Below the pieces are notes generated by a model. The model saw only the letters and a program-made list of their open reading frames with translations. It did no database searches and was not told where the DNA came from. A DNA stretch of 34,573 bases from a virus, in IMG/VR virus record IMGVR_UViG_3300045988_140174, positions 1 through 34,573 of that record; one strand, written 5' to 3'. Positions 1-34,573 of this stretch are shown in pieces (position 1 is the stretch's first letter; every line of letters begins with the position of its first letter). The position numbers and the translations under genes were made by a program.

Positions 1-3000
1 ATTCAGCATCAAATAAATGATTTTTAGTTAAAGTGCTTTCATCCTTGAAATAAGGATCGCTAGCAGTTTCAATCCACTTATCTGAAGTCTTATTTTTATT
101 ATTCGCAGCAACACGACCACGGATGCGGTTCGCACCACCACGTTGATAGTTACCTTCATTTAACCAAGAATCAATATACTCTAAACGGTTAGATAGGAAT
201 TGTTGACGAGATAGACTTCTATTTCCTTGTAAAGCATAGAAATAAGTACCATTAGTATCAACAGTATATACGCCAGTCGTATCACTACTAATATGTCCAG
301 TAGTACCATCTAAGTAAGAAGCATCATTAGTAATAGTAATATATTTATAATACTCATCTAAGTTAACCGCTACTAATGGACGAGTGCCCAAGTCAGCTAA
401 GTTATTTGTTGTATTATAATCAGTTAAATAATATGATTCAATACGATCAACAGTTTTTAAAGGTGGCTGTTTTAAATTAGAACCAAATACACTAGTAGTA
501 ATACCGCGTAAATGTCTGTATTTAGGAATAATTAAACCAGTTTTAAAATATTTATAGAAGTTATTCCATAAAACACTATCAGAAGTAGAATAGTTACCAT
601 CTTCAGTAGCATCAACATTGTATTCAAATGAAGGAATACCAGTATTATTAATACCTAATTGAGTATCAATATCATAGAAAATTGGATACCAAATATAGTC
701 TCCGCCTTTCTTTTGAGGACCCCAAGAAGCCATCATACAGTTTTTACCACGAGAGTCATAACATTCAAAAATTTCTGTCATAACGAAATATGTAGCCATA
801 TATTCTTTATCGAAGTGGTCACTTAATTCATAAGTAAATTTATCACCACGATACTCTTGTGTGTCATATTTATAAGAGCGATCACCATAAATAATAGTGG
901 TTCCAATATAATATTTATTTGGTTCATAAGTTTCAGCAGTCACATTAGCCTTAGTTACTGCTTTACCACATTTAGCGTTTCCATCATAATTATAATATGT
1001 TTTACTTGCATCAAATGCTTCATCTTTACATAAAACAACTAATCTATCAGCCTTTGTATCTAACTCTTCATCGCTATAAGATTCCAAAGTATAATAACGT
1101 TTATCGGGATTAAATATATCAGTGCTATAACAAGGAACATAGGTAATATTATTATTTTTATCAATTTCACCAGTATATAATTTAGTTTTAATAGCACTAA
1201 ATAATACTGTTCCAACATAAGCAACGATATATTCATGACTATTTTCTTGATTAGGATTATAGTCAGGATTCTTTTTATAATAAGTAGTGCCTTCTATATA
1301 TTCTTTAGCTAAGGTATAAATCTATTCAGAAGTTGATGGATTAGTTGTCATAATATAATGTTTATTACTATCAAATAATTCTTCACCAACATCACAGATT
1401 TTATAAGTACCATTTGATACAACTTTTTCAGTACAAGTACTCCAAACCCAAGCTACAGCGCGTTCCCAATTAGAATAATCTTTCAATAAATGCTGAGCGC
1501 GATTTTCTTGATTTAATGTAATATCATCCTTAGAAAATGTTAATGTTGGGTCTTTCTTACATTCTCCATCAGGAGCCATAATATAATCAAGAATATCTTC
1601 GTCATTATGATAACGATATTCAAATGAGTCTGCTACCACAGGGGCAGATTGAACTGCATTTAATACACGAGAACCATCAGCATTAAATACATCAAATTTC
1701 AAATCTTTGCGGTCTTGTGGGTCACGATATGAGCAGAAGGTACGGCTATTGTTTTCAAACTCCCAACATTCTGCTACTTTAGGCATACTCTTAGTACCAT
1801 CGCCTATAAATTTAGCTTTTGGATCTTTACCAGTAGTGCTGTCAAGTGCGAATCCATATACTTCATCAGAACCTTTATCTAAAAGCATATTGTATATACC
1901 AATAAATTGATAAATAGGCTCTGTGCTACCATCGACTGGTTTCTTTTTATGGAATGCAAGTACACGGAACCCTCGTACAGAAGTACGATAATCATCAGTA
2001 TTTTCAACCTTAAAATCGCTGTATCCAGGTTTCATAATATACCATTTATTATATTTAGGATTACTTGAATCAGCTACTTTTAATTTTGAATAAACAGTTG
2101 GATTTTCAGCCATTAATTTTTGATATAATGCGTATGGACCTAAATCAAAATCTTCTTTGCTGGTAATCACAATATTATCTTCTAAGACTTCATTACTTGC
2201 TGTTTTCGGATTACCCTTATGATTATAATAAGTATAAGTAGTTCCAGGAACATACTCAGTTGTTTCAGTCTCAACAGTTTTGTCAGGGTCTAAAACCTAA
2301 AATGCTTTTGCATTATTATAATCGTCTAATGGATGTTTAGAATAAGCATTTTTAACCATATTTGCAAATCCCATATTATAAGTTCCAGAAGATTCCATGT
2401 AGTCAATCTTCATAGTAAATTTATGAGTTCCGCAAGTATAATTATTAAAATACCAATATTTTTGACGAGTTTTTTCATTGCCACGTTTTACGTAAGCAGT
2501 ATTTTCAATATAAAAAGTATTAGGTTTATAAGGATTAGTTTCGCTAAATGTAACTTCCTTTTCACCATTTTCATCTTCATAATATTTAATTTTTAATTGG
2601 CCAGTAGCAGAATCAACTAGAGGACCTAATGTTGTACTTAAAATATAAGGCTTCTAAGTAGAACCTAATACATCAGCATTATACTATTCTCTAAATGGCC
2701 CACGGTTTAAGAAAATGTTAACACGCTTTTCGCCATCTACCGCATCGTTATTTTTAGTTTTAACTTTATAATTTCTACGAGGATAGAATTCAGATGAAGT
2801 TCCTTGAACGCTCATTGATGCGCTATCACTAATAAATGAAGGACAATGATATTTATAATAAGTTTCAACAGCTTTTTGTTTTTCAGCTGCTGTCGCACCA
2901 TCACCAAATAATTTATCAGCTTTAGCTAATTCTTCCAATTTACCTTTATTATAATACATTTCAAGTGGAGTATTAACAAATTCAACTCCAACATTTAATT

Positions 3001-5512
3001 TAACCTTTTTAGAATAAGGAAGTTTATTTTCACTATCTTCTAATTTAGTAGTATCAAAAATAATATAAGGCATTAATGGGGCATCAGGATGTTCATTATT
3101 ATACTTTATCATATTAGTATAGCTAAATTGGAATTCATCAATAGCAGTATTTTCTTCTGCTAATTTATTTTGATCGTAAATATTTACATTCTCAAAATCA
3201 GCAGCATAATTCATGACAATATCATTAACGTTTAAATCAGTGCGATATACTCGGACCTTATATAAATCAATATCACAGTAATCACTGTTAAATTCAATTT
3301 TATCATTTTCTACAACAAATCCATTTTCTTGAGTGTTTCTAACAACACTAGTTAGTACACCATTTAAATAAATATAAATTAAATTTTGAATTTTTTCTTT
3401 ACTATATTTACATACAACAGATAAAGTAATAATTTTATTTTCTACATAAGATACGTTTACGGTATCAGTACCATTAGAGAAAAACGCATCCTGTGGTCCT
3501 AAACATAAACCAGTAACGGCTTTAGTATTACCAGAAGAGTAACTACCTATAACATTACTTAAATTAATTTGCTTAGCAATATGACTAAATTCTAAATCAT
3601 CATATTCCATTCTACGTTTATTACCATTTTTATCGACAAATTCAACTTCATAAGTTTTTAAATACCAAGCTAAAAATGCATCATAGTTGGTGTATGTAGT
3701 ATTAAATTTGCCAGTTTCTTCATCATAAAATGCTTTATATAATTTTTCATCATTTTTATAACGAGTAATAGTACGAATTAAATTTGAATAATCCTAAACA
3801 TTACGAATTTTGAAAGTTAATTCAATACTATGAGACTGCTCAGTAGCTTGAGAGCCACTAGGATTTGAAAATACAGTGCGACCAATAGGAATAGATAATT
3901 TAGCACCATTACTAATACGTAAACAAGTTTTATTATCTTCATCCGTAGTCCAACCATTATTATACCAATTAAAATTAGTAAAAGTCGCCGCACAAGGTTC
4001 AGCCCCTAGAGCTGTAGAAGAATTTACTAAAGTAGTGCGTTTAGCCAACGTTTCAGAATTAGAACGTCCACTACCTACTGTGTTTAATAAATAAGTTAAG
4101 AAGCCTTGCTTCTAAATACCAAAGTCTGTTCTTGTTGGGTCATTTACAACACGAATTTCAATTTTACGGGTAGTCTCACGCGCTCCATCACCACAAGTAA
4201 TAGTGTAGTGATTAATTACATTTAATTCAGGATTAGCAATTTCAAAAATAGCAAATTTCTTAGAATCTGTAATTGTTTGAGGAGAATAAGAAAGTTCAAT
4301 ATTATTACGTTTAAAATGCACTACTGGGTTTTCAGCCTATGGGTCAAAAACACGGAAAGGAATTTGAATAGTGTCATAATTATAATATTCATCTTTATAG
4401 TCTCCCAACCAAATAATTGGAGGAGCTTGAGGGTCTAAACCATCATAAACAGCTACTTCAAAAATTAAAGGGTCAACTTCAATTCCTTTTTTGCCATTAA
4501 TTGATTGGAATAAACGAATCCAAACTTTATGATAACCATTAACTACAGGGATATATTGTGAAACATTAACAGTCTATAATGTAGCCGAATTAGCGGCTAA
4601 AGATACACTTAAAAATGGTTCATCTTCATTGTCAAAATAATATTCAACAATTTTATCCATAGCGCCATTAACATTACATTGTAATACTAATTTACTAGGC
4701 TCGAAATAACTTAAATTAGAAAAACTACTTGATTCTTGTAATTCTAACTTAGAAGTTTTAAATGTTACTAAACGAGTAACTGTGCTTGGATGATTGGTTT
4801 GACTAGCCACTAATACTAATCTTGAAGAAGCATCGTCTTTAGCCAATTTACCAAATTCAAAAGCATATTTCTCGCCATCAGGCACTTGGAATGTTCCTGA
4901 ATTATATTGGTTGTAATTGGTGCCATCATCAGTATATTCTAACTTCCAATTAATTGTTAGAATAGAGTCATAAGAATTACCCTTTTTATTTTTAGCTGAT
5001 GTGGCGACAAATGTTATTTCTTGAGAACGTCCATTAATTAAGTTAACAGTAGGTAATGAGTCTACAGTTAATTCAATATCAGAAGCTAATGAGCTAGGGT
5101 CATCTCCTCCCCCTCCACCAGCAACAGTTAAACGACGACATAGCACATTTTGAAATGCTCGCTGAACTTTTATTACACGATAAAAACAATTATCACCTAA
5201 ATTGATAATTAAATCATCTTCTTCGGGATACTCTCCGCCTTCAATAGCTCCGATTGGAATATTGATTTCATCTTCTAGTTTTTCAGCATCAGTCGGAGTA
5301 TAATTGGCATAATAAATACCAGAATTACTTCCTGAGCCACCACCACTACCGCTTCCTAAAAGCTTTCGTGATACCATTGTACCATCAGCTTGAGTATAGT
5401 CTATGAAAATTTTACCAGTATCAACTGCAAAATAAACATATCCATCATTAAAACCCATTAAATCTAATTTAGCTTCAGTACCACGAACAGGGATGAATCG
5501 TTTATTGCTCAT
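1..5512 (-). CDS. Tail-fibre / receptor-binding-like large structural protein, 5' portion only (more than 1837 codons; gene continues past the window start). Contains in-frame TAG codons.
   Basis: ATG at 5510-5512 sits 8 nt downstream of AAAGGAG (plus-strand revcomp 5519-5526). ORF-track fragments 4574..5512, 4112..4321, 3794..4048, 2684..3610 and 1322..2170 are all in one frame, and each is terminated by cta (TAG) at 4574, 4112, 3794, 2684, 1322, with a further one at 1295. I translated 1321 down to about 1170 by hand and found no TAA/TGA; 1..1170 was not checked. N-terminus MSNKRFIPVRGTEAKL..DGYVYFAVDTGKIFID carries the same fibre-anchor motif as the two upstream genes. Gly/Ser linkers present (GSGSGGGSGSNSG, GGGGGDD). 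Confidence 0.75.
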
Positions 5513-5562
5513 GCAAGTATCTCCTTTCTATCTTAAATTTTATATAAAACAAAATTATATAT

Positions 5563-5593
5563 AAAAAAAATGGGAGAGGAATTTTCCTCTCCC
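5563..5593 (-). terminator. Rho-independent terminator for the minus-strand fibre gene that ends at 5654.
   Basis: GC-rich inverted repeat GGGAGAGG / CCTCTCCC (5572-5593). On the plus strand it is preceded by an 8-A run (5563-5570), so on the minus strand the hairpin is followed by U8. Confidence 0.7.
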
Positions 5594-5653
5594 AAATTCC
5601 TTCGTTGATTTTTAAAAAAACCACGAATATAATTATTATAGATTGTCCTTAAA

Positions 5654-7297
5654 TTAGAAAGAACCCCAAACCAAATCAGCAGTAACAGTACTACCAGATG
5701 CAGTTAGTTTTAAAGTATCAGATTTTAATACCATCTTTGCATTTTTATCAGATACTAAACTAGTTCCAGCTTGTAAAGTATGTGCTACAGTAACAGTGTT
5801 AGTAGCATCATCACGAGTAGCACTATCTGGACCGGGCTTATATTCTAAAGTCTGGATAGTTTTAGTATTAATACCAGTGATATGACCATTATCATAAGTG
5901 ACAGAATCGATAACATCGAAAGTACCACCATTAGTTAATGATTTGCCATCAGTAGTTGATGTAGTATCATAAGTATCATGCTTGATAGTTACAGATAATT
6001 GATTTGGTGCTGAACCACCATTATCAGTAGAATCAATAACAATGCCATCACCTTCGGTAAAAGCAATTTTACCAACTACTCCACCACCATTACTAGAAGT
6101 AATGGTCATGCTATCGGTTGCACCTGCAGCTTTAAAAATATAAGTAGTATCAATCTATGCATCATCGCCAGAAGGAACATAAGTCCATTCGACATCACCA
6201 ATAGCTAAAACACCATTGGTTTCAGATTTTTTATCTTTGGCAGTTGCAATTAATAAATCGCCAATACCAGCAGTTTTACCAGTAGCATAAGTTAAATTGC
6301 CACCTTGAACTAAGAACATGTCGCCAATATGAATCTCAGCAGCAGTTCCACCCTTTAATACATTGAAACTTGCATCCATAGTAAAGGTAGTGCCACTAGT
6401 GCCAATAGTGCCACGATAAGTCATACCGTCAAGTTTATTAATTAACGCATCGACTTGGTCTTTAGAGTAAACAGGAAGGTCTACTTGTTTAGTATCGCTA
6501 CCAATACCATAATAACTACCATCAACGAAATAACCTAACTTTTGTGTCTTTAAAAGACCAGTAGTTCCAGCAGTATCAGAAGCTCCTACTTGTAATTCAC
6601 CATCATTGTTTAGACCTAAAATAATACCATTTAATTTAGTATCTTTAGATGCAATTTGAATACCATTACTTTTATCAATTTTAGTAACAGTTACATTGTC
6701 GCCGCCTTTGATGTGGACAGTGCTATCATCCTATAATGCGCTACCTAATACTAAATCAATATCATTAGTAGTATTAGCATCCTCTTGAACATTAAGAGTA
6801 TAGGTATCACCAGTAATTGTGAGTGCTTTATTATTAGCCATGGCTACTTGAGCACCCTTAGCTCCAGTAATAGTTACATCAGCTGCGGTAATAGTTTTAC
6901 CAGCATCACTATTAGTACCACCAGTAGTAATCTTAACACCCTTGTCAACTGAAGAAACAACTTGAGTTAGAGCAGTTAAAATAGTATCGTCATCAGGATT
7001 GATTTGCGCCCAAGCAGTACCATTATAATATGCTAAAACATTTTCAGTTACACAATAAGCGATATCGCCTTTAGTAGATACCGTTGTTTTTGCCTTTAAT
7101 GTACTTAAATTATCATAAATTTCAACACTTTTATTTAAAAGAGCCAGTTCATCAGCTTGACCAATATATAAACGACTACTATCAGAAGTTAAATAAAATG
7201 TACCTACTTCCCAGCCCTTTTGAGAATCTTTTAATGTATTTAAACTCGCTTGAGTACCAAGTTTAAATTTTACAGCATTACCAGTATAATCAGCCAT
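5654..7297 (-). CDS. Tail-fibre-like protein, 547 aa, with Thr/Ser/Gly-rich beta-rich shaft. Contains in-frame TAG codons.
   Basis: ATG 7295-7297 with AAAAAGGAG 8 nt upstream; TAA stop 5654-5656. Fragments 6731..7297, 6155..6424 and 5654..6109 share one frame and are separated by cta at 6731 and 6155. N-terminus MADYTGNAVKFKLGTQASLNTL...GTFYLTSDSSRLYIG carries the fibre-anchor motif. Confidence 0.8.
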
Positions 7298-7324
7298 AAT
7301 AAAATCTCCTTTTTATTTTAAAAA

Positions 7325-8263
7325 TTACTCTGAGAGTTCACCCCAAATAATACTCTCATAAACTTTATTAATTTCGTTGACAATATTAGTAGTATCTCCA
7401 GCCGCATAAGCTTTACCGAGGTCATTTAATGAGCCAACAGTAGAATTAAATACCTCAAGCGAAGTATATTCTTCAACAAGTTTCTTTTCAACAGCTTGTA
7501 ACTGAGAAACTTTTGCATATCCAGTTAAATCAGCATTACCAAATGTACCTAATTTTTCTGGTTTTGAGTTGATAAGCATATATTCATCATAAGAATTGTT
7601 ATCATCTCCACTACTATTAGGCACTAAGTAAACAACATTTTCTTTATTATTTTCCGCTGAAGTAATATCTTCTAAGCTGCCGACAGGTTTATAGGTTAAA
7701 TGATTCGCATTAGCGATTTCATTTTTAATAACAGTATTAAAATTATCAACTTGATTTTGTAGATTAACAATTTTAGTACTAATAGTATGAAAATCTTCTT
7801 CGGGCTTTTCCCACTCTAACTTACCAGCAGCTCCTTTTTTCAAATAAGAGCCACTTTCTGCAGTATCAAATCCAATGAGATTTAATTCAGGATTTGACCC
7901 TTCAACAGTTTTAAATTCAAATGTATTAGCATTAACATTAATCTCTAATTGACTAGCTATTAAACTAGCAACATCAGCCAATGATTTACTTTCCCATTTA
8001 CCGCTGTCATTTTTAACTAAAAACGCACCAGCATCAGTTACAGTTTCTAAAACATCACTAATATCAGATAACTTAGTAATATTAGTCTCCGAGCCAGAGC
8101 CACTAATTAATTTATCACCTAAATATAAATATCCATTTTTCTTATCTGCAGATTCATAAATAAAATATAAAGTATTAGGATCTATTAGTTTTCGCGCCTT
8201 TAATGAATTATAAGCAGTTATTGTACCGCGCTAAAACTTTACATAATTAACATTATTTGGCAT
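7325..8263 (-). CDS. Tail-fibre-like protein, 312 aa. Only one in-frame TAG, at 8231.
   Basis: ATG 8261-8263 preceded by GGAAAGGAGATTAAT; TAA stop 7325-7327. Hand translation gives MPNNVNYVKFxRGTITAYNSLKARKLIDPNTLYFIYESADKKNGYLYLGDKLISGSGSE... (x = TAG), continuous with ORF-track fragment 7325..7981. The motif V-K/Q-F-x-R-G-T ... TLYF ... LYLGD resembles the N-terminal anchor domain of prophage tail fibres / HylP-type proteins. Confidence 0.8.
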
Positions 8264-8330: not shown

Positions 8331-8369
8331 TAAAAAAAGTTGGCCCATAATTAATCCTTATGGGCCAAC
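8331..8369 (-). terminator. Rho-independent terminator between the baseplate block and the fibre genes.
   Basis: Perfect 11-bp inverted repeat GTTGGCCCATA ... TATGGGCCAAC (about 8339-8369). On the plus strand it is preceded by AAAAAAA, which gives a U-run after the hairpin on the minus strand. Coordinates +/-1. Confidence 0.7.
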
Positions 8370-8373
8370 GTTA

Positions 8374-8766
8374 TTTATTCCTAAAAAATCGAAAGAATTT
8401 CTTCTGGTTTATAGTAAGAAATATTAATTACCTACTCACTATCTTCATAATAATTTTCTTTATCACTAGCACTAATTGCAATTTTTTTCCATAGCCCATC
8501 AATATTATGAGCATCTAATAAATACCCACTTTTATCTAATCTATAATATTCAGCATTTGGAATATATTCATCATTCGCTTGAACAACAATATACTATGGA
8601 GATTCAGTTTCATCTAAATAATAAACCATTAATCTCTAATCAGGGGTTAATGAATTAAAAACTGATTTTAATGTTGTAGTATCTTTAATAGAAGTTTCTA
8701 AAACATAATCAGTGCCATCTTTGAAATTATTATATTCAATTTCAGCAGCTTTTTTAGTGCTATAAA
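8374..8766 (-). CDS. About 130-codon coding segment in the +1 frame relative to the upstream 1082-aa gene, with no canonical start codon. Either a frameshift/reinitiation extension of that gene or a small gene with a non-ATG start.
   Basis: The frame is open from a TAA at about 8767 down to a TAA at about 8374, directly abutting the terminator hairpin, and contains 5 in-frame TAG and no TAA/TGA. First ATG is about 45 codons in, with no SD. Its upstream end overlaps the last 4 codons of the 1082-aa gene (...TAT AGG CAC TAA AAA AGC). Coordinates +/-2. Confidence 0.4.
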
Positions 8767-11700
8767 TTACACTAGGCCGATTCTAAATATAGGAAGGTGA
8801 ACCTGGATGATCTTGAGTCCAATTAGCTTGATATTTATCTCTACATTGCTGGAATTCTCTTAATAAACCCCATAGAGAATTTATATCACGATAATATTGT
8901 ACTCCTTCTTCAAAACCAGATGCTTTTTTATATAGTAAATATGCTGTATAATATGTCTTTTTATTATTAAATTTAGTAATATCTCCAGCATATACTTTAT
9001 CACCATTATCATTTTCAATATAATAGGCAGTATCAGGACTGGGGTCATTATCTAAATTTTCAACTTTTTCCCAAATGGGATAATTATCTTGGACAACATA
9101 TAATGGCCCAAAAGCTCCAGTATGTAGAGTTGAAAATGTTTTTTCAGTTTTAATATCCCATTGATTGTTAGGATTTCTTAAACCAAAGTCAATCTCACCA
9201 CGTTTACCATAATACACTACGTCTTTTGCCGGCTCGCCTGTTAAAATATTACCTTTTGAATCTACTATCGGATTACCATTTTGATCATATAAATCTGCCC
9301 AAACATATTCACTTTTTACTGGAATAAAATTATTAATGCTATATGAATCAGTGTATTTACCTAATAAATTTAATAATGCATTATACATACCCCAAATAGT
9401 TTCTTGTGAAGGTATATCATAATAATCATTATCTGTTTCTAATCCTAATAATTTATATAAATAACGAATTAATTCAGAAATAGTTTTAGGATATAGCGTT
9501 GAGTCATTAGGATCTCTATCGTTACCTATAAACAAATAACGCTTTTTATCTGTGGTATTTTTATCTGCTGGGATAAAAATACAATAAGCTTGACGGTATA
9601 GTTTGTCACTTTTACCAACTTGAATATACTATTCTGGATCCATAATATAATATACCTAATTTGAATCAAAATTATTCTAATTGGGTATATATTTATTATC
9701 TTTTTTAATATATAAAATTTCATCAATTTCATCGAAAGCATGCTAATCTAATTCAATTTTTACATAAGTAGTATTAGGATCGGGGTAATATAACTCACCA
9801 TTTAAATACTTTTTATCACTATAATCAACATAAGTATTAGTTTCACCATAATCTTGAGGATTATATATGACCCAAGTACCACGAGGATATACTAAATCCC
9901 ACATTAATGAAGCCATATTACCTAATTCTGGAAGATTAATATCAAATGTACGCTAGTCAATTTGTTTAGCATATTTTAATTCATTATTAACATAGAATCC
10001 TGAATCAGATAATTGAAGAGAAAATGGTTCATCTATGTTTGATAATGTTCCTTCATCAAGTTTATTGTTAATTAATTTATATCCTTTGGTATCCATATGG
10101 ACTGGATATAATTCACCAGAACTAGTTTTCTTTAAATAAATTTCATTTACTCTATCAGGAATATAATGCTATCTACGTTTATTAAATCCTTCAATATTAT
10201 AATGGAAATCTGTATTTGTATTAAATTTCCAATTACGAGGTAAATGTAATTTATAATCTAAATCAGTACTTCTAAAAGTATCTATATGAGGTCCATGATT
10301 ATGATGTACTCTAACTTTTTGAGCATACTATCTTCTCTATTGATTGTATTTTTTCTCATTATAAGAAATATTACCAGCATCATCTGTAATAATATATTCA
10401 TCAATAATAGCTTCTATTAATTTATTATTATCAAAATAATATAATTGCTAAGGGATTTTTACTAATCGTTTAAATAATTCAAATGAAATGTATCCAGGTT
10501 CTTCTAATTTTTTATGATAATATTTTAATGTAATACCATTATTTTCAGTAGCAGAATATTTTGACCCAACAGACAAAGCAGTATAATGAGGCGGGTCATT
10601 TACAATATAATCTGAACTATAATAAATATTACCAAGGGTTTCTAAATACATATCAAGAATTTCTTGACTTGTAATAATTTCAAGTTTTTTACCATTTACA
10701 TCTTTTTCTAATGGTTCATAAATAATTATATCGCTAGTAATTTTTTTATATTCAAATAAGGGACCACGATAAATATCTTTTATAGGTAATGCCTTATATT
10801 CTTCTTTACGAGCTTTTTTTAAATCAGCAATAGCTTGTTTCCAAATTTGAACTTTAGATGCATATTGAGATAACATATCATCTAAATTTGTAATTTTAGT
10901 GTTATAATATTCTTCAGAGACTTTATCTCCTGCATATTGAGCAAGAGCTTTTTCACGAACTAAATTTGCTCTATATTCACTATATCCACCAATTTTATCA
11001 GCATTCGCCTCATGATTAGTGTCAAATGTAAATAAACCTTTATATTCTTCAGAATTATTAATTTTTTCTTCATAATCAATAATTTCTTCTAAATTTTCTT
11101 TTACTGATTCTTCTAATTTTTTTACCTTAGGAGTGCTAGCATTCCATTTATCAACAATATAACTAATATCTAATTCTTTATATTTAGGAATAGTAAGAGC
11201 AGTTTCTCCTTCTCCTATAATTGTTTCGCCGTCTAATTGATAATAACTATTTAATGGAGACAACTAAACACGGCTATTATCTTCATATAAAAAACTAACT
11301 TTTTCATATTCATCATTATCATCAGGAGCGTCTACTATAGCTTCAAATTTAGGAGCTTTAGAATCTAAACTCGCAACCATAATATACTTTTCAGTAATTG
11401 TAGTATTATTACTAACTGAACACCAAATTTTTTGCCATACAGTATGGTCATAATTAGCTTGATAATGTTTTTTATCTATTTCTTTATTTATAGAATATTC
11501 ACAATTTTCATCAATTCCATCAGGTGTTAAATTATTTAATGGGTCTTGAGTAATACTATCTTTTAATAAATAATATCTCTAATTGGAATCATAAAAATCA
11601 GTTTTAGGGTCTACTTTAAAATAGTCTCCATAAGGACGCTATGAAGTAAGTTTTGGGTCCATATCACCAATAGTCTAAATACTACCTTGAATTTTATAAA

Positions 11701-12001
11701 CCCACAACACTGGACAATTAGCCGTAAATTTTTCAACTTCATTGCCCTTTTCGTCATTAGCAGTTTGATGCCACTAAGCTTTTATTTCTGTTGATATATA
11801 AGGACTATATCGACGTTCGCCATAATTAATAAATACATAACGAGTGTTATACACTCCATCGCCATTAATATTCCCAGTAGAGGAGCCATCTGGAGCGCGT
11901 TTAGCTATGGCTTGTTCCATTTCATAACGATTGGTATAAGTTTTATCAAATGTTAAAGCAATTCGTGGATTAACTTTTAAATTACCATAAAATGAACTCA
12001 A
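8753..12001 (-). CDS. Phage minor structural / baseplate protein, about 1082 aa, TTG start. Contains in-frame TAG codons.
   Basis: TTG at 11999-12001 sits 8 nt after AAGGAGG and directly after the TAA of the preceding gene. Fragments 11774..12001, 10448..11263 and 8783..9535 are in one frame and end in cta. I translated 9536-10447 by hand: no TAA/TGA, 8 in-frame TAG (9629, 9656, 9677, 9743, 9953, 10169, 10328, 10337). True TAA stop is 10 codons below 8783. 11264-11773 was not hand-checked. Confidence 0.7.
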
Positions 12002-12343
12002 TTAACTCCCCTCCTTTTCGTATAAAATATCTATTAATAAATAAGCATCTTGATTTTCATCTATATTAGTTAATGACATTTCATCAAAATTAATAGATGT
12101 TACTACACCAGAGCCCTAAGTCATATCTAATTCATACAAACCAACTCCACCAATCATTATATAGTCTTGATTGGCATTAAGTCTAAATTTAGTACCTGGT
12201 AAACTTTGGATTCCTAATTTTATAATAGGAGTATAATCATCAAAAATTACTCCTGACATTAATTTAGCTTTAGTTATTGTTACTGGATAATTTTTTTCAT
12301 TTAATTCACCAAAATATCGAAACTAAACAACACTTTTAGCCAT
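12002..12343 (-). CDS. Small hypothetical structural-module protein, 113 aa, 2 in-frame TAG.
   Basis: ATG 12341-12343 with GAGAGGAGA 7 nt upstream; TAA stop 12002-12004. Hand translation: MAKSVVxFRYFGELNEKNYPVTITKAKLMSGVIFDDYTPIIKLGIQSLPGTKFRLNANQDYIMIGGVGLYELDMTxGSGVVTSINFDEMSLTNIDENQDAYLLIDILYEKEGS. Confidence 0.6.
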
Positions 12344-12359
12344 TACTCCGTCTCCTCTC

Positions 12360-15170
12360 TTATAGCAATCTTGGAGGGGCTTTTGTAGCCACTACAGTCA
12401 TCATACCATTATGATTTAACTAAATGGTAATTTTATTTAAAATATATTCTCCATGTATATCACTTTTATTATCATCAACTGTAATAATTGTATTTGGTTC
12501 TAAATAATAAACAGGGACAGATTTTAAATTTATTTTTTCATTCAAATAAGCATATTGATATAATAAATTATTCAATTCATCATATGTTGTTTTACCCTAA
12601 GATGAAATAACAAATTTATCTTCATACATTTTAGGTAATGGTATATAAGCATATCCATCCTATAATAAATTTTGTTTCTAATATAAGCTATATTTTTCAG
12701 GACTAATATAAATTATATTAGGAGTATCCCTATAAATAATAGATTTAATAGCATCATTATTAACAATTTTCGGCCTATCTCCAATAGCTTTCACAGAGTA
12801 CTTGCCTATCGTACATTCTGAATCTTCTATAAAATCCATCCAAAATTCTAATGTAGAAGGGTCAGTAATATATTTTCTATTCCATCCATAATACTCTTTT
12901 TCATTATCTGGTAATGGCATCTACTCCTCAGGTTTTTGTGGATTCGGCATGCCAACAAAATAATTTTTATAATCAGTTGTTGTAGGATTATATATTTTTC
13001 TCCAATATGCTAATAAATCAGCATAATAACTTTCATAACCAGTACATCCATTTTTAAATTCTGGATTATTTTGAGTTAATTTTACTGCATAATCATCATT
13101 ATGTCCATATTTCTCATAATCTAATGCCATTTGATAAATTAATTCACGCCAATTCTATTTTACATAATACTATGTATTTTTATCTTGGTCTGGCATTACT
13201 GGCTAATACACATAAGCCTTGCCGCCTTTTTGATATAAAGGATCAAACCAACTTGCCCAGGGATGCGTACACATAGAACCATGTCCAGTATATCCTATAC
13301 TACCATCTGACAATAAATCAAAAACATATAATTTTTTATTTTCCCAATCATTCCACTAACCATAACTTGAACTGCAGGAAGTGCCATAAAATTTTTTCAT
13401 TAACTCATCATTATGACATTCACCATAAAGAGAAGCAATATCTATATTTACTCCTCCATTTTTCCCATCATAATAGTCTCCCAGCTCTCTATCAGGATAC
13501 TATCCTAAATATAACTTATAAAGTTCAGCCCAGTCTTTAACATCCCACCATTGTTCATCAAGAGCAGTTCCCTATAAAGTATCTTTTGGATTAGGAGTTT
13601 TTACAAATTCTCCAGTTTTTAGTGGATCATAAGAACGATAAACTCTTCCATCAATTGTAGTATATTTTTTAGGTTTTTCATCAATAGCATATCGTAAATG
13701 AATGGGTACGCCTTCACTATTCGCAGTAGTTGGATTCTTTTTGCCCCAAATCATAAAATTATTTTTTATTTTAGAAAAATCAGGAGTATGCTAAAATGAA
13801 GAAATTAAAACATTATCTGAAAAATTATAAGAACTTTTTGAAGCTAACATTGCAACTTCTGCATAAATCTAATTATAAGTATACTAATTATCATGCTTTT
13901 CATAAATAGAATTTAATTTTTCATCTTCTTCAGGATTAACTGAATCTGTAGTTTTTATCATACTAGTCCAAGACTAATTTACATAAGTCCGCTTTTTCTA
14001 AAAAACAAATTGTCCATCAAGATTATAAAAATATTCATAATCTCCAAAAGTAGAACAAATTTTATCAAGCACTGAAGTGATTGTATCTCCTACATTAACT
14101 ACCAAACCATCTTCATCAGGCCAATATAAATCTACTGCTCGATATCCAGCCGTACCAGTACCACTAATTTTAGAAACATAATATCCTATTTTATCATTAG
14201 GACTATCTTTTACTTTAGTTTTAAAAGTATTTGAACCAATTTCAGTTAATTCACTATCTGTCAATTGATTTAATTGGACTTTTTTCCCAGTAGTAGTATA
14301 TTTTGTTAAAGTTGTATCAAAAGTAATATTGACATAAATACCATTATCATCTAAAAAAGCATAAAAATCACCATCAGTATATCGTAATAATTCTAAACCT
14401 TTATCATCAACATCTTTAATTAAAATATTATGAAAAGGCTCATTTCCATAAAAATGGATCATTTCACGAATAATATATGTGATAGGACGTCTTATTTTTT
14501 TATATTTTTTAATTTCTCCACTAATACTATCTTTAACTTCAACAATACCCAACATTAATTCATTATTTTGCTATTCGGTTAAATATGCTATACCTTCATC
14601 AGTTAAATATTGAGTTTCAGTATTTTTATCAATTCTCCAATGTAAATTTTTTATTAAATTATATTTTACAATTAATTCAGATACATTTAAATTTTCTTCA
14701 TCATATTCAACTAATTCTATTGCAAAATCAATTGGATTAGGAAAATTTCCTCCAATATCACCATTTAATAAACACATTTTATCTTTTCCTGAAATAGCAA
14801 TTTTACATCCAGTAGAAGTAAGTGTTGTATTAAAAGCAGTAATTAAAAACATACCTTGCGGGAACCAAATTAAATCATCATAATCAGAATCAATATTATT
14901 AATTAGGCCAATATAAAGATTAAATTTAGTTGTTAATCCCCAATATACATCAGTAATATTTACTCCTTCAGATACTAATTGTACTGAACAAGAACGACGA
15001 ACAGCGGAGGACCCATCAATATTGATGGATCCTCCAGAAGCTTTGCCTTCAATCGATTCAACAGGTTCTTCATCTTTATTTAAACTTACAATTTTAATAA
15101 AAACTTCTTTCTAGTTGTCTAAATCTAACTATTTCAAAAAATGAGTATCTAACAAAGGATTATTTTTCAT
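12360..15170 (-). CDS. Phage structural / baseplate protein, 936 aa. Contains in-frame TAG codons.
   Basis: ATG 15168-15170 overlaps the TGA of the upstream gene (ATGA); TAA stop 12360-12362. Fragments 14571..14852, 13998..14555, 13572..13754, 12921..13130 and 12678..12920 share one frame and each ends in cta. Full hand translation found no TAA/TGA and about 22 TAG. Confidence 0.75.
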
Positions 15171-18100
15171 TGATACATACCCGCCTCTATCTCTTTAGTA
15201 AACCCTCTATCGAGAGCTAATATAAATTTATTCCAAGCATCTTTTACTGCTTCAATTAATTCACGCATCTATTTATCTTTTGATACAGTATCATTAATAT
15301 CATAATAGTCATAAAATCGTGTTGATAGGAATCCTCTAAAAATAGTAAGATATTTTTCATATTCAATCTAATAATATTCAGCTTTTGTTTTATAATTTTC
15401 TTGTTTATTAGTGTAAATAGTAATTAAAAATTCTGCCTATTCAATCGCGTCTTTATAAGCATTTATATCTTTGTTTAAAACATTTTCAATATACCAATAA
15501 AAAATTCCCATACTTGTAATTGAAGAATAATTTTCATTAGGGTTAGATAATTTAGGTAAATTAGTAAATAATTCAATTAATAATGGATCAATTCTATATT
15601 CATTAAATAATTGAGTATTACACCAATAGCACAATTCTGAAATTTTTGCCAATCCTTTTAACATTAATAAATGCTGATATCTTACTTCATTAATAGTAGG
15701 ATTTGTTTTTGAAATATTTACCTTATATTCTGACAAATTATTTAAAGATTTTATTTTATCCTAAATAAAAATTTTATTGCCTAAAGATTTATAACTTCTT
15801 AATAGAGTGGTATATAATCCATCTAAATTAGAATTATATAACTCTAATACTGATTTTAATGTACCATAATCAGATAATGCATTATCTCCACCAGTATTAT
15901 TAGAAATAAAATTAGAACGTGTTTTATAAGTATAATTTATAATATTATCAATAATATTGCGTTCAGGATGTTTTTTAATATCTTCACTATCACTTTGATT
16001 TTCTTCACTTAAAACAGTAGAAATAAATTTATTATTAGAATATAAATTAAATGTTCCCTATTGTAAATTAGCAAGTTTAGTAGCAGTTAAATATGGTTCA
16101 ATAAAATTATAATTATTATTTTTCTAATCATTCGCTGATACTGCTAATTGATTAAAATAATCAATAAAACTTTTTATTAAATAATCTTTTTCATTCAAAT
16201 AATAATCTACATTTAAATCATAATTATTTAAAGTAGCTTGTTTATAAAAATTATTTTCTAAATAATAATATTTTCCCAGAGTTAAGAAAATATCATTTTT
16301 TTCAATTTTTCCTACTAATTTATAGGTTGAAGTATTTATGCCATTACTAACCAATAGCTATTGATAATTTGTAATAGTAGAATTATAATTAGTTATTATA
16401 GTATTAGCATCTAATAAACGAGAAAATCCAGTATTCATATAATTATTTGTAGCATTTGGAGTAATTAAATCAATAATAGCATCTAAAACATATTTATATC
16501 CATTTTCTTTTACTGGTAAACAGGTATTATCAATAATATATAATAGTTTATTAATTTTAGCTATACGAATATTAGTGGCTTCAAGATTATAAGTATTCTA
16601 ATCAAATTCAATACTATTAAAAATTGAATTATCTCCTTCATCTAAATTATTTCCTTCAATATCTAAAATAATATTACGATTAGAACTAGATCGAATAGTA
16701 CTTTGTATAGAAGACCCTAATTTAGTTATATAAGAATCTGAATATTTACGATTATTCTTCTCATAATAATAGAATGAATATAATAATCGATCTCTAAAAG
16801 CTAAACAATATAAAAGATCTCTTTTTCTATCATTCCACCAACCTGAGAATGTAATAGATTTCTATAAATAATAATTTAACTTAGATGATAAACTAGTACT
16901 ATCATTTATAATTAAATTAGGCCAATTTAATTCTTTTGCTGACTAACAAACATAATCTAATTTATCTGCCGCTAAAATAAATTTAATAATAGAAGAACTG
17001 TCTTCATCTTCCAAGCCATTCTATTCAGTACCGCCTTGTAATTTTAAATTTAAGGCAGTATAATCAGAAGCAATAGTATTTCCTATATCAATTAAACTAG
17101 ATACCTAAAATAAATCCTTTAGAGTATCCATATTGTCTAAATCAATTTTAGTATTTTTTAATTTCTCAATTAAATCAATACAAGCATCAAAAGGATATAA
17201 AAAATTATCATTATCATCAGTGCCAATAAAATTAATAAATGCTTTAGTATCAGAATCTAAATTATCAGTCTATCCTAATAATTTATTTAAATTTCTACGA
17301 GATTGTTTTAAACGTCCATAATACCATAAAATTTCATGTATGCCACCCAAAACTTTTTGATATAATAATTTATCTAAAGCATCATCGTCATCTTGGTCTT
17401 TTATAATAGCTAAATATCCTATTATAGTATCATATAATCCTTGAATAGAAGTCCAAGCATCAATATAATAATTCATTTGAATCCGGCGCGCCTCAGCTTC
17501 AGAAGTATTAGTGCTACCTAACCCTGCTGAAACTCTATTATAATGATTTTTTATATTAGTTAAAATCTCAGTAATATTAATTGAAGATTCAATTTGCTCA
17601 AGATTATCTTTTATTGAATTATAATTAGAAGAAGTAACATTTGTTAATTGATTAGCTATACTCTAATAAATTAAACAATATAACCACAATGCTGCTTTAT
17701 ATCTATAAACAATTGCATTATAACCATCATCAGTAAGAGTTTGACCATTTTTATCAGTGATTTCATAAATTTGATTTAATAAACCACCATAATCATTCGC
17801 AATTGAATTAGCATTTTCAATAGCAGAATTCTAATTATTATAAAGAGATTGTAATAAAGAATCTAATTTATTTAATTTAGAATTAATACCTTCTTTAGTC
17901 GGCTGCTAAATTAAATCTAATAAATCCTATTCTTCTTCATCCTATAATTTTAATTCAGTATACATACCTTTATTTATCTACATTCGCTTAATTGTTTTTA
18001 ATACTTCTTTTTTTATTTCAGCTTTCTTCTCTTCAGTAATATTATTTGACCATAAATCAACAATATTAAAATTCTTTAATGCTGCTGGTTTCATAGTATT

Positions 18101-22435: not shown

Positions 22436-22461
22436 AGTCATTCTCCTTTACCACATAATTA

Positions 22462-25362: not shown

Positions 25363-25436
25363 AATTCGTTCTCCTTTTTCTCATATTCTAATAAATTTTG
25401 AGAAAAAATCTTATTTTATTATTTATATTTGACCAA

Positions 25437-25469
25437 TAAAAAAATGGCGAGGTAATTAAACCTCGCCAT
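25437..25469 (-). terminator. Rho-independent terminator immediately after the TMP stop codon.
   Basis: Perfect 10-bp inverted repeat ATGGCGAGGT (25444-25453) / ACCTCGCCAT (25460-25469) with a 6-nt loop. On the plus strand it is preceded by A7, which gives a U-run after the hairpin on the minus strand. It lies 6 nt below the TAA at 25475-25477. Confidence 0.7.
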
Positions 25470-25474
25470 TTAAA

Positions 25475-33820: not shown

Positions 33821-33851
33821 AAACGGGACTCCTTTCTCTCATAATATAAAC

Positions 33852-33888
33852 AAAAAAAATGGGTGTGAGAAATAATCTTCTCACACCC
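33852..33888 (-). terminator. Rho-independent terminator between the 174-aa gene and the TMP.
   Basis: Perfect 11-bp inverted repeat GGGTGTGAGAA (33861-33871) / TTCTCACACCC (33878-33888) with a 6-nt loop. On the plus strand it is preceded by A8 (33852-33859), which gives U8 after the hairpin on the minus strand. Confidence 0.7.
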
Positions 33889-33935
33889 ATACACTTGATT
33901 ATTCCTATTTAATTTTAAAAAATTAAATAGTTTAA

Positions 33936-34460: not shown

Positions 34461-34489
34461 TTCAAAATCCTCCTTTTACACTTATTTAT

Positions 34490-34518: not shown

Positions 34519-34573
34519 ATTTTTTACACTATGTAAATTGGTTGTAATTAAATTAGTTATTATATCAACAGTA

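What the first reader, a model, noticed from the sequence alone, without database searches (positions are those of the whole stretch)
1..8263. Three tandem paralogous tail-fibre-like genes sharing an N-terminal anchor domain but with divergent bodies
The three N-termini align:
- MPNNVNYVKFxRGTITAYNSL..DPNTLYFIYE....GYLYLGDKL (312 aa)
- MADYTGNAVKFKLGTQASLNTL......GTFYLTSDSSRLYIGQAD (547 aa)
- MSNKRFIPVRGTEAKLDL...DGYVYFAVDTGKIFIDYT (>1837 aa)

The shared pattern is F-x-(R/L)-G-T-x-A-x-L ... (T/Y)-(L/F/V)-Y-F ... (L/I)-Y-(L/I)-(G/D), which resembles the conserved N-terminal attachment domain of prophage tail fibres and HylP-type proteins. Downstream the sequences are unrelated: a Thr/Ser/Gly beta-rich shaft in one, Gly-linkers plus large globular regions in the longest. 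This looks like a multi-receptor-binding-protein cassette. Each gene has its own SD, and terminators separate the block from the baseplate genes and separate the last two fibres.
Basis: partly seen in the sequence, partly recalled or inferred. Interest (0 to 1): 0.55.

Follow-up and report, generated by a model that had tools for sequence, protein, structure and literature searches.

The report
Three tail fibre genes sharing one N-terminal module
At the end of the tail-gene block of an abundant ~200-kb human-gut phage that reads the TAG stop codon as glutamine, three adjacent fibre-like genes begin with the same small ~45-residue module and then differ completely; this is a well-known design for phage host-recognition proteins, so it is real but ordinary in kind.

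Summary
The three genes (minus strand: 8263-7325, 7297-5654, 5512-<1) are intact only if TAG is a sense codon. All 11 in-frame stops are TAG, and TAG aligns with Gln in homologues.

The N-terminal similarity is real but linked through the middle gene. Profile-profile tests give g312~g547 E=1e-6 and g547~g1837 E=9e-7. g312~g1837 gives only E=8e-4, barely above the reversed-sequence controls. The bodies are unrelated.

The same trio, in the same order, occurs in every relative examined, down to 36% identity, so the triplication is old. The module is a widespread phage fibre element: 1,156 protein clusters, nearly always at residue 1. It corresponds to Pfam PF24243, which homologues match above threshold but the window's own protein does not. 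Mtd_N reaches only sub-threshold scores. Mtd and HylP did not match in the PDB searches.

The genes follow a 2,781-aa tape measure gene and the tail-tip genes. Both terminator hairpins and all three Shine-Dalgarno sites are confirmed.

New here: a sharp recombination boundary lies at the g547|g1837 spacer. Strains with a 96-99% identical long gene differ by 35-66% protein identity across a ~27-kb tail-tip block that includes g312 and g547.

The "baseplate anchor" role remains an inference. Verdict: a new member of a known kind.

The parts
7325..8263 (-). g312 (family A): 312-aa fibre-like protein with one in-frame TAG, at codon 11. Layout: N-terminal module, Ser/Gly linker, then mixed beta/coiled-coil body.
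   Evidence: ORF with TAG as sense. 582 homologues. AF2 model of a 96% proxy, pLDDT 73. BFVD fibre-protein hits. PHROG 24103/35541, unknown function.
8102..8263 (-). N-terminal module of g323-family gene g312 (aa 1-54): VKFQRGT...NTLYFIY...GYLYLGDKLIS.
   Evidence: hhalign A-B E=1e-6. Homologues match Pfam PF24243 at residues 8-33 with 26-28 bits against a cutoff of 23.7. g312 itself scores only 12.2 bits. Predicted E9-14, H15-23, E31-36, E44-48, E51-54.
5654..7297 (-). g547 (family B): 547-aa Thr/Ser/Gly-rich fibre-like protein with two in-frame TAG codons.
   Evidence: 618 homologues, including a 100% identical database protein, P0017. No Pfam or PHROG assignment.
7157..7297 (-). N-terminal module of g547 (aa 1-47): VKFKLGTQASL...GTFYLTSDSSRLYIGQ. 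This is the bridging member between the other two families.
   Evidence: hhalign B-A E=1e-6 and B-C E=9.4e-7. Its orthologues in L001/L002 hit Pfam Mtd_N at 20.6 bits, below the 26.3 cutoff. Homology with g312 extends to about aa 104 (window 6986-7297).
2..5512 (-). g1837 (family C): first 1,837 aa of a ~2,716-aa giant fibre/adhesin-like protein with eight in-frame TAG codons. The 3' end lies outside the window.
   Evidence: Full-length orthologues are 2,716/2,724 aa. PHROG 14959/24896, unknown function. The orthologue's C-terminus hits LRR_5 at 25.4 bits, below the 27.7 cutoff.
5357..5512 (-). N-terminal module of g1837 (aa 1-52): FIPVRGTEAKL...DGYVYFAVDTGKIFIDY.
   Evidence: hhalign C-B E=9.4e-7; C-A only E=8.3e-4. 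Predicted E7-11, H13-17, E25-29, E35-40, E46-52.
4745..5356 (-). g1837 aa 53-256: Gly/Ser linker (53-63), small beta domain (64-129), Gly5 linker (130-141), Ig-like beta-sandwich (142-256).
   Evidence: AF2 model: pLDDT below 50 in both linkers and 80-95 in the sandwich. Foldseek hits to FN3/Ig-like and bacterial adhesin repeat domains, E about 4e-4 to 5e-3.
1922..2419 (-). Variable patch inside g1837 (aa ~1032-1197).
   Evidence: 64-77% DNA identity in L006/L007/L008 where the flanks are 90-99%. 56% protein identity in that bin, and 38% in L001/L002.
5571..5594 (-). Terminator-like hairpin (10-bp stem, T8) between g547 and g1837.
   Evidence: The stem GGGAGAGG/CCTCTCCC is conserved in L001, L002 and L010, with an analogous hairpin in L011.
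5513..5682 (-). g547|g1837 spacer plus the last ~28 nt of g547: the recombination boundary, and the Shine-Dalgarno site of g1837.
   Evidence: Against L016, identity is 96.5% from window 5682 down to 1, and about 67% or unalignable above it. The sliding-identity step is at 5665. The 141-nt spacer is nearly identical in W, L009, L012 and L016.
8339..8369 (-). Terminator-like hairpin (12-bp stem, T7) between gG1181 and g312.
   Evidence: An equivalent hairpin is present in L012 and L016 but not in L001, L002 or L010.
8231..8233 (-). TAG codon 11 of g312, encoding the nearly invariant Gln of the KFQRG motif.
   Evidence: Q11 is nearly invariant in 96 homologues. It is TAG in 8 of 9 genomes, including ~50%-identity relatives, and CAA in L009.
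8375..33820 (-). Upstream tail module, given as context: gB2781 tape measure (25475-33820), gC966, gD2424, gE936 (tail protein), gF113, gG1181.
   Evidence: Gene map. Tape measure PHROGs, E=5.9e-44. gE936 hits phrog_1887 tail protein, E=2.5e-11.

Best explanation
These are three late structural genes of a TAG-to-Gln recoded, ~200-kb human-gut tailed phage. They encode three different tail fibre or adhesin proteins that act side by side at the tail tip.

Each begins with a copy of one ancient ~45-residue module (strand-helix-three strands; consensus [VI]xFxRGTxAx[LY]...[DG]x[LFV]YFxxDxxx[LI]Yx[GD]). A flexible Gly/Ser linker and an unrelated body follow: a short beta/coiled-coil fibre in g312, a Thr/Ser/Gly-rich beta fibre in g547, and a ~2,700-aa multidomain protein with Ig-like domains and a probable C-terminal leucine-rich-repeat region in g1837.

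The module most likely oligomerises the fibre and docks it onto the baseplate or onto a neighbouring fibre. The bodies contact the host surface.

g312 and g547 are co-transcribed behind one terminator. g1837 sits behind its own conserved terminator, probably as a separate unit.

Host-range variation arises by homologous recombination at conserved boundaries. The g547|g1837 spacer is one such boundary. g312 and g547 travel with the baseplate genes as one ~27-kb tail-tip block that exists in deeply divergent alleles, whereas g1837 is shared nearly unchanged between those alleles.

Shown: the recoding, the gene structure, the module homology (A-B and B-C), the conserved synteny, the tail-module context, the mosaic boundary, and the terminator-like hairpins and SD sites as sequence features. 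Inferred: presence in the virion, the docking role of the module, receptor binding by the bodies, and the transcription units.
For: Recoding and gene structure.

Context: tape measure gene E=5.9e-44; PHROG tail protein.

Module homology. Same predicted secondary-structure order in two independent models.

The module is widespread: 1,156 cluster representatives at E<=1e-3. In nearly all of the top 150 it lies at residues 1-~53, in proteins of 57-2,072 aa whose bodies are A-like (63), C-like (2) or unrelated (73).

Pfam PF24243 'Phage tail tip domain' matches the module above its cutoff in family A relatives.

The trio is syntenic in L001, L002 and L004-L016, and in the distant L010 and L011. 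L003 is syntenic too, although its middle gene is interrupted by an assembly gap.

Within families A and B the N-terminal 50-100 aa are the best-conserved part, and identity decays toward the C-terminus.

Fibre annotation of structural neighbours. Ig-like/adhesin-type domain in g1837. LRR_5 near-threshold hit in the full-length orthologue.

Mosaicism: window vs L016 is 98.7% for g1837 but 40%, 55%, 35% and 66% for g547, g312, gG and gE. Window vs L012 is 93-97% throughout. The terminator and spacer are conserved at the boundary.
Against: - There is no direct evidence that any of the three proteins is in the virion or on the tail.
- Some BFVD neighbours of g312 are annotated as head fibre or Dec-like proteins.
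- The direct g312-g1837 link is not significant (E=8e-4, score 21.4, against a best control of 19.8).
- The module's best PDB match is the distal C-terminal end of 80-alpha FibU, a fibre anchored through another domain.
- Some proteins carry two or three tandem copies or internal copies of the module. So it is not intrinsically a baseplate plug.
- The N-terminus of g1837 is 100% identical in two genomes whose baseplate genes differ by 35-66%. That is awkward if it docks on those proteins.
- PDB fold searches gave nothing specific for the module.
- g547 has no family assignment and was not modelled.
Confidence: 0.7

Rival explanations
1. The shared module is not a baseplate anchor. It is a generic small folding or oligomerisation element, or a distal 'tip' element that itself contacts the host or another fibre. 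It happens to sit at the N-terminus in these three proteins, and attachment is made by other parts.
For: Pfam calls PF24243 a 'Phage tail tip domain' (Phage_tail_C). The family A profile aligns to the last 25 residues of 80-alpha FibU (6v8i_BN 364-388, E=0.058). That fibre is anchored by its N-terminal Ig domain, and its C-terminal part is a distal knob (PMC7048315). P0257 has three and P0275 two tandem copies; P0280, P0318 and P0394 have internal copies. The second half of the module resembles an ordinary beta-propeller hairpin. g1837's module is identical across two divergent baseplate types.
Against: In nearly all of the 150 best hits among 1.84 billion proteins the module starts at residue 1-10. 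It is followed by flexible Gly/Ser linkers. It is the most conserved part of families A and B. These features are typical of proximal attachment parts of phage fibres (established knowledge of T7 gp17-type and tailspike N-terminal adaptors). The FibU match is weak.
Confidence: 0.25
2. The three N-termini resemble each other by chance or convergence. They would be short beta-hairpin-rich, compositionally similar segments in an AT-rich genome, and the genes would share no common module.
For: BLASTP finds nothing between g1837 and the other two. The direct A-C profile comparison is at control level. The DGxxYFxxDxGxxY half of the motif also hits designed beta-propellers through summed weak repeats and propeller Pfam families at sub-threshold scores.
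Against: The A-B and B-C profile scores (34.1 and 34.8) are far above six reversed-sequence controls (maximum 19.8). Intermediate sequences such as P0317, P0356 and P0275 bridge the types. A gap-free core alignment spans all three families. Two models predict the same order of elements. The same arrangement recurs in all relatives.
Confidence: 0.04
3. One or more of the three, most plausibly g312, is not a tail fibre but a head fibre or decoration protein, or another virion appendage that happens to be encoded next to the tail genes.
For: BFVD neighbours of the g312 model include 'Head fiber protein' and 'Dec protein' entries (E from 1e-6 to 3e-5). No experimental localisation exists.
Against: Those names come from automated annotation of metagenomic records. 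Tail fibre entries are equally frequent in the same list. The gene lies between baseplate-region genes and two further fibre-like genes, is co-inherited with the tail-tip block, and carries PF24243 in its homologues.
Confidence: 0.08

Closest known systems
Pfam PF24243 (Phage_tail_C, 'Phage tail tip domain')
   Same: It covers the first half of the module (VKFxRGTxxAYxxLxxKDxNTLYFI). Family A relatives at 33-40% identity to g312 match it end to end at residues 8-33, above the gathering score.
   Different: The window's g312 scores only 12.2 bits, and g547 and g1837 do not hit it. The model is 26 residues, whereas the module here is about 45. Here the module is N-terminal, while the Pfam name and the 80-alpha FibU match imply a C-terminal position.
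Pfam PF18454 (Mtd_N), the N-terminal domain of the Bordetella phage BPP-1 major tropism determinant
   Same: A short N-terminal xxFxRGTxAx...DT...G motif at the start of a receptor-binding protein. The g547 orthologues of L001/L002 align to profile positions 1-33 of 37 (E=4.2e-4).
   Different: The score is below the curated cutoff (20.6 against 26.3 bits). No window protein hits it. No Mtd chain was found with three domain profiles in the PDB. There is no C-type-lectin body and no diversity-generating template/variable repeat in the window.
Multi-fibre baseplates such as staphylococcal phage 80-alpha (RBP, FibL, FibU; PDB 6V8I, PMC7048315)
   Same: Three different fibre or receptor-binding proteins are encoded after the tape measure, Dit and Tal genes. 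Two of them share a homologous N-terminal domain used to build rings on the baseplate, and the bodies are unrelated.
   Different: In 80-alpha the shared N-terminal domain is a BppU-like Ig fold of about 120-170 residues, not this 45-residue module. The element resembling the present module sits at the other, distal end of FibU.
Conserved N-terminal adaptor with exchangeable C-terminal parts in phage tail fibres and tailspikes (T7 gp17-type and branched tailspike systems; named from my own knowledge, not tested here)
   Same: A conserved N-terminus tied to the particle, a variable distal part, and exchange by recombination between related phages.
   Different: Here the exchanged unit is a ~27-kb block including the tape measure gene's C-terminal part and the baseplate genes, not just the fibre C-termini. 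Only L009's g312 allele shows a within-gene switch.
Stop-codon-recoded (code 15) gut phage clades of about 150-210 kb (Borges et al., bioRxiv 10.1101/2021.08.26.457843)
   Same: TAG is recoded in late structural genes. The phage is of human-gut origin, with contigs of 198-201 kb.
   Different: Clade membership was not tested, because no marker-gene phylogeny was made. The phAss-1 group (PMC10607447) is different: 44% GC and 136 kb.

Membership tests
Pfam PF24243 Phage_tail_C | Score at or above the curated gathering cutoff (23.7 bits) for the protein itself | tested here: not met
   g312 scores 12.2 bits, E=0.12, covering profile positions 18-26 only. g547 and g1837 give no hit.
Pfam PF24243 Phage_tail_C | Homologues of the protein, aligned over the same residues, pass the cutoff (transitive membership) | tested here: met
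   P0180, P0184, P0187, P0239 and P0250 (29-48% identical to g312) score 25.7-28.1 bits at residues 8-33. P0257 scores 77.6 bits with its tandem copies. 14 of 69 sampled module-bearing proteins hit it. This holds for family A only.
Pfam PF18454 Mtd_N | Score at or above the gathering cutoff (26.3 bits) | tested here: not met
   The best score is 20.6 bits (E=4.2e-4), for the g547 orthologue of L001. Two of 17 N-termini hit at all, and no window protein does.
Pfam PF18454 Mtd_N | Detectable sequence relationship to BPP-1 Mtd itself | tested here: not met
   Profiles A5, A11 and A2 searched against all PDB chain sequences at E<=10 returned no Mtd chain. That Mtd structures are in the PDB is my own knowledge.
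   No HylP chain appeared in the same three PDB profile searches. One BFVD entry named 'Hyaluronidase' appeared only at E=0.063.
Phage tail fibre / receptor-binding protein (functional class) | Encoded in the tail module, downstream of the tape measure and baseplate genes | tested here: met
   gB2781 is a tape measure protein (E=5.9e-44). gE936 hits phrog_1887 tail protein. The order is conserved in all relatives.
Phage tail fibre / receptor-binding protein (functional class) | Structural resemblance to known fibre proteins | tested here: inconclusive
   The g312 model gives BFVD hits at E=2.7e-7 to 4e-5 named tail fibre, head fibre or Dec, with low TM-scores (0.14-0.24). The PDB gave nothing for it. 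g1837 residues 1-312 give generic Ig-like hits. g547 was not modelled.
Phage tail fibre / receptor-binding protein (functional class) | Presence in the virion at the tail tip and binding to a host receptor | not testable with these tools
   This needs proteomics, cryo-EM or adsorption assays. The host is unknown.
Genetic code 15 (TAG = Gln) phage | In-frame TAG only; ORFs restored by TAG read-through; TAG aligned with Gln in homologues | tested here: met
   The invariant Gln of KFQRG is encoded by TAG.
Genetic code 15 (TAG = Gln) phage | A suppressor tRNA(CUA) encoded by the phage | tested here: inconclusive
   There is no tRNA gene in the 34.6-kb window. The rest of the ~200-kb genome was not examined.
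Diversity-generating retroelement target (Mtd-like) | A template/variable repeat pair near the 3' end of the target gene | tested here: not met
   The only direct repeats in the window are 40-51 nt at about 70% identity in AT-rich sequence. The 3' end of g1837 and the rest of the genome lie outside the window.

The most novel reading that the evidence does not exclude
The fibre genes use TAG for only 15% of their Gln-type codons, against 40% in the neighbouring tail genes. They are also slightly richer in G+C, and the longest one is nearly identical in strains whose adjacent 27 kb have diverged to 35-66% protein identity. One reading is that fibre genes enter these recoded genomes repeatedly from less-recoded or standard-code phages, then acquire TAG codons slowly. 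TAG density would then act as a clock for horizontal acquisition in recoded phages. In the same reading, the amber codon kept at codon 11 of g312 in 8 of 9 genomes would be a selected gate that blocks fibre synthesis until the code switch. A second part of this reading is that the 45-residue module is a universal plug that lets imported fibres mount on any baseplate of the clade.
Probability: 0.15. Interest if true: 0.6.

Novelty: new member of a known kind. Interest (0 to 1): 0.35.

Why it matters
Clusters of several receptor-binding proteins with a common N-terminal part are a standard way for phages to widen or switch host range, so the principle is not new. The value here is practical.

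- It gives a correct gene model for the tail tip of an abundant, uncultured, TAG-recoded ~200-kb human-gut phage. Standard gene callers shatter these genes.
- It defines a 45-residue module, present in more than a thousand protein clusters, that marks the start of fibre genes and could be used to find them in metagenomes.
- It locates a precise recombination boundary at a conserved terminator-containing spacer. At that boundary a ~27-kb tail-tip block, including two of the three fibres, is exchanged as one unit while the giant third fibre stays constant.
- It makes predictions that can be tested once a host is found: which fibres set host range, and which parts must co-evolve with the baseplate.

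Tried and rejected
- Megablast of the whole window against 50,697 deposited phage genomes found no match (one search failed on a length limit).
- Pfam on the three full proteins gave nothing above threshold. PHROGs gave only families of unknown function.
- A profile search of the PDB with the mixed N-terminal alignment A5 found nothing.
- With A11 the top hits were designed 'Cake' beta-propellers. I rejected these as an artefact of many ~4-bit repeat matches adding up.
- A Foldseek PDB search with the g312-proxy model found nothing at E<=0.001. With g1837 residues 1-312 it found only generic Ig-like folds.
- phmmer of g1837 aa 880-1780 against the PDB found nothing. I had suspected a CotH-like domain from reading the sequence, but Pfam did not support it.
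- A DGR reading, prompted by the Mtd_N lead, was rejected because the window has no template/variable repeat.
- phAss-1 (PMC10607447) was considered as the phage group because L001's contig is 135.6 kb. It was rejected: 44% GC and different tail genes.
- A literature search for the Pfam accessions returned only mtDNA papers.
- Source names for NCBI-derived homologues were absent.
- My first ORF script had a bug, and its output should be ignored.
- The L003 middle gene is interrupted by an assembly gap and was left out of family B.


Full report
**1. What is in the sequence**

Under the bacterial code, the region 1-8263 holds only short minus-strand ORFs. The largest are 312, 308 and 282 aa. 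The claimed 547-aa and >1837-aa proteins appear only when stop codons are read through. Every in-frame stop in the three genes is TAG: 1, 2 and 8 of them, and the two complete genes end in TAA.

With TAG as a sense codon, the minus strand of the whole 34.6-kb window becomes ten consecutive genes, and the longest ORF grows from 440 to 2,787 codons. Reassigning TGA changes nothing on the coding strand, where the longest ORF stays at 440 codons. Reassigning TAA raises it only to 499 and opens 63 spurious ORFs on the opposite strand.

In alignments with homologues from other contigs, the residue opposite a TAG is Gln 16% of the time, a 6.6-fold enrichment. It is TAG itself 6.6% of the time, a 9-fold enrichment. 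No other residue exceeds 2.1-fold. The nearly invariant Gln of the KFQRG motif in g312 is encoded by TAG. So this phage uses code 15.

The gene map, all on the minus strand:

| Gene | Window coordinates | Note |
|---|---|---|
| gA174 | 33936-34460 | |
| gB2781 | 25475-33820 | tape measure protein |
| gC966 | 22462-25362 | |
| gD2424 | 15167-22441 | |
| gE936 | 12360-15170 | PHROG tail protein |
| gF113 | 12002-12343 | |
| gG1181 | 8375-11920 | |
| g312 | 7325-8263 | family A |
| g547 | 5654-7297 | family B |
| g1837 | 2-5512 | family C, cut by the window edge |

**2. Is the N-terminal similarity more than chance?**

Pairwise BLASTP gives E=5e-4 for g312 against g547, and nothing for g1837 against either. 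I then collected orthologues of each gene from related contigs and from the protein database, and compared family profiles.

- With thin profiles: A-B E=1.9e-5, B-C E=1.1e-5, A-C E=0.039.
- With deeper profiles (64, 8 and 12 non-redundant N-termini): A-B probability 91%, E=1e-6, score 34.1. B-C probability 91%, E=9.4e-7, score 34.8. A-C probability 24%, E=8.3e-4, score 21.4.
- Six controls with one profile reversed scored 9.5-19.8.

The middle gene therefore links the other two, and the direct A-C link is not significant alone.

Three further observations support one module:
- A gap-free core alignment spans all three families and includes 'intermediate' sequences from unrelated proteins (P0317, P0356 and P0275).
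- AlphaFold2 models of a 96%-identical proxy of g312 and of g1837 residues 1-312 give the same order of elements. These are E9-14, H15-23, E31-36, E44-48, E51-54 and E7-11, H13-17, E25-29, E35-40, E46-52, at pLDDT about 70-80, followed by a disordered Gly/Ser linker.
- The arrangement recurs in every relative examined.

Outside the N-terminus the three proteins show no similarity, pairwise (E>=0.075) or by profile. The A-B homology does run over about 90-100 residues.

**3. Context and relatives**

gB2781 matches tape measure PHROGs (E=5.9e-44), and the N-terminus of gE936 matches a tail-protein PHROG. The other upstream genes have no assignment. So the trio sits where long-tailed phages usually encode receptor-binding proteins.

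There is no match among deposited phage genomes, but the phage is common in metagenomes. g547 has 618 database homologues and g312 has 582. Contigs cluster at 198-201 kb, including a Hadza gut contig of 200,920 bp and a 197,566-bp contig in an NCBI metagenome assembly.

Gene maps rebuilt with TAG as sense show the same three genes in the same order:
- in relatives at about 50% identity (L001-L003; the middle gene of L003 is interrupted by an assembly gap);
- in near-identical genomes (L004-L009, L012-L019);
- in two distant relatives at 36-39% identity, one of them with 38% G+C (L010, L011).

The triplication is therefore old, and the window contains no DNA-level repeat of the module. Full-length family C proteins are 2,716-2,724 aa. 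Their C-terminus, outside the window, gives a near-threshold BspA-type leucine-rich-repeat hit (25.4 against 27.7 bits). Residues 142-256 are an Ig-like sandwich.

**4. What the module is**

A profile of the module was searched exhaustively against 1.84 billion cluster representatives. It found 1,156 proteins at E<=1e-3 and 65 at E<=1e-10. In nearly all of the best 150, the match lies at residues 1-~53, in proteins of 57-2,072 aa. Of 138 proteins not seen before, 63 have a g312-like body, 2 a g1837-like body and 73 neither; 26 of those 73 are 200 aa or longer.

Pfam PF24243 ('Phage tail tip domain', 26 positions) matches residues 8-33 of family A relatives above its cutoff, and tandem copies in P0257 reach 77.6 bits. 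The window's own g312 reaches only 12.2 bits.

Pfam Mtd_N reaches 20.6 bits (cutoff 26.3), and only for the g547 orthologues of L001/L002. Three PDB profile searches found neither Mtd nor HylP.

The best PDB match is the last 25 residues of the 80-alpha upper fibre FibU (VKIWTGTENEYNYIYQKDPNTLYLI; E=0.058). In that phage the fibre is anchored by an N-terminal Ig-like domain, and the C-terminal part is an unresolved distal knob (PMC7048315). Together with the tandem and internal copies elsewhere, this shows the module is not by nature a baseplate plug. I still favour a proximal docking or oligomerisation role here, for three reasons:
- its N-terminal position;
- the linkers that follow it;
- the fact that it is the most conserved part of families A and B.

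This is an inference, and I give the rival reading a probability of 0.25.

**5. Signals**

An AAGGAGA Shine-Dalgarno sequence precedes each ATG. Terminator-like hairpins lie at 8369-8339 and 5594-5571, and there is none in the 27-nt g312|g547 spacer. The second hairpin's stem (GGGAGAGG/CCTCTCCC) is conserved in L001, L002 and L010, and L011 has an analogous hairpin. That argues for function. Termination itself was not tested.

**6. Module exchange**

Sliding DNA identity between the window and six near-identical genomes shows a step at window ~5665. In L004, L005, L008 and L009, identity is 87-99% over almost all of g1837, but only about 50-60% (88% at most, in L009's g312) across g547, g312 and gG1181. 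L006 and L007 are mostly 84-99% identical to the window, apart from the variable patch described below.

Protein identities of the window against two other genomes:

| Gene | vs L016 | vs L012 |
|---|---|---|
| gE936 | 66% | 96% |
| gF113 | 88% | 100% |
| gG1181 | 35% | 95% |
| g312 | 55% | 97% |
| g547 | 40% | 93% |
| g1837 | 98.7% | 93% |

The window's long gene is thus closer to one lineage and its upstream block to another, which requires recombination at the g547|g1837 junction. BLASTN places the break within the last ~28 nt of g547, next to a 141-nt spacer that is nearly identical in all these genomes.

Against the L004-type genome, the divergence extends upstream through gD (68-71%) and gC (44% protein identity) and into gB. 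Identity is 81% at the 3' end of gB, there is no alignment for 28352-32211, and it returns to 90% at 32211-34526. The exchanged unit is therefore a ~27-kb tail-tip block that carries g312 and g547 with the baseplate genes. g1837 belongs to the conserved flank.

Within families A and B the alleles stay homologous along their whole length (25-68%), so this is allelic replacement, not substitution by unrelated bodies. Finer mosaics also exist:
- L009's g312 allele is 90-96% identical to the window over the first 100 residues and 41% at the C-terminus.
- g1837 has a variable patch at aa ~1032-1197.

**7. Comparison with what is known, and verdict**

Several fibres sharing a conserved N-terminal part, encoded after the baseplate genes and exchanged between strains, are a familiar design. 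80-alpha, with RBP, FibL and FibU, is the closest solved example, though it uses a different shared domain. Recoding of late genes in large gut phages is also described.

The finding is real and is now precisely described, but it is a new member of a known kind. Its more unusual side features are the block-wise exchange with a terminator-bearing boundary, the low TAG share in the fibre genes (15% against 40%, Fisher p=1.2e-5), and the amber codon kept at codon 11 of g312. These are leads rather than results. Interest: 0.35.

Noticed in passing
window 1-34573, minus strand: The whole window is readable only with TAG as a sense codon (Gln). The ten genes carry 1 to 64 in-frame TAG codons each. 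Standard gene calling splits them into 57 ORFs of at most 312 aa.
   Followed up: yes
window 2-8263 vs 8375-34460: TAG makes up 15% (11/74) of Gln-type codons in the three fibre genes but 40% (166/411) in the seven upstream tail genes (Fisher p=1.2e-5). The fibre genes are also slightly richer in G+C (31-35% against 25-30%). The same contrast appears in L012 and L016, and it is weaker in L001/L002.
   Followed up: partly
window 8231-8233 (codon 11 of g312): The nearly invariant Gln of the KFQRG motif is encoded by TAG in 8 of 9 genomes, including relatives at about 50% identity. Only L009 has CAA. In general only about 29% of Gln/TAG columns opposite a TAG are themselves TAG. It may be a conserved early amber 'gate'.
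   Followed up: partly
window 25475-33820: The tape measure gene encodes 2,781 aa (PHROG E=5.9e-44), which implies a very long tail. Its middle part (about 28352-32211) does not align at all with the L004-type genome, although both ends do.
   Followed up: partly
window 5513-5653; also L001 9874-10000, L002 9856-10000, L010 4922-4988: The hairpin stem GGGAGAGG/CCTCTCCC followed by a T-run, located between the second and third fibre genes, is conserved across relatives with only about 50% protein identity. The loop sequence differs between them.
   Followed up: partly
window 1922-2419 (g1837 aa ~1032-1197): A local patch has 64-77% DNA identity in L006-L008 within an otherwise 90-99% identical gene. 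It is also the least conserved bin against L001/L002 (38%). It may be a surface-exposed or receptor-contacting insert.
   Followed up: no
L009 2254-3189 (g312 allele): This allele is mosaic. It is 90-96% identical to the window protein over the first 100 residues, then falls to 41% at the C-terminus, while its flanking genes are about 50% identical.
   Followed up: partly
L012 11792-19942 (full-length orthologue of g1837), aa ~2557-2646: The part of the long protein beyond the window edge ends in a probable BspA-type leucine-rich-repeat region (Pfam LRR_5, 25.4 bits against a cutoff of 27.7).
   Followed up: partly
proteins P0257, P0275, P0280, P0318, P0394: The same module occurs as two or three tandem N-terminal copies, or as internal repeats, in other large fibre-like proteins. 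P0257 follows its three copies with Ig-like Big_13-type repeats.
   Followed up: partly
window 8375-12001 (gG1181) vs L012 4809-8918 and L013 4009-7563: The gene just upstream of the trio varies in length between otherwise close genomes (1,181, 1,184 and 1,369 aa). It is the most divergent gene between block alleles (35% identity to L016). It has no Pfam or PHROG assignment.
   Followed up: no
L010 (IMGVR_UViG_3300045988_168855), whole locus: A distant relative with the same trio has 38% G+C and uses TAG for only 0-12% of Gln-type codons in these genes. The degree of recoding therefore varies widely within the wider group.
   Followed up: no
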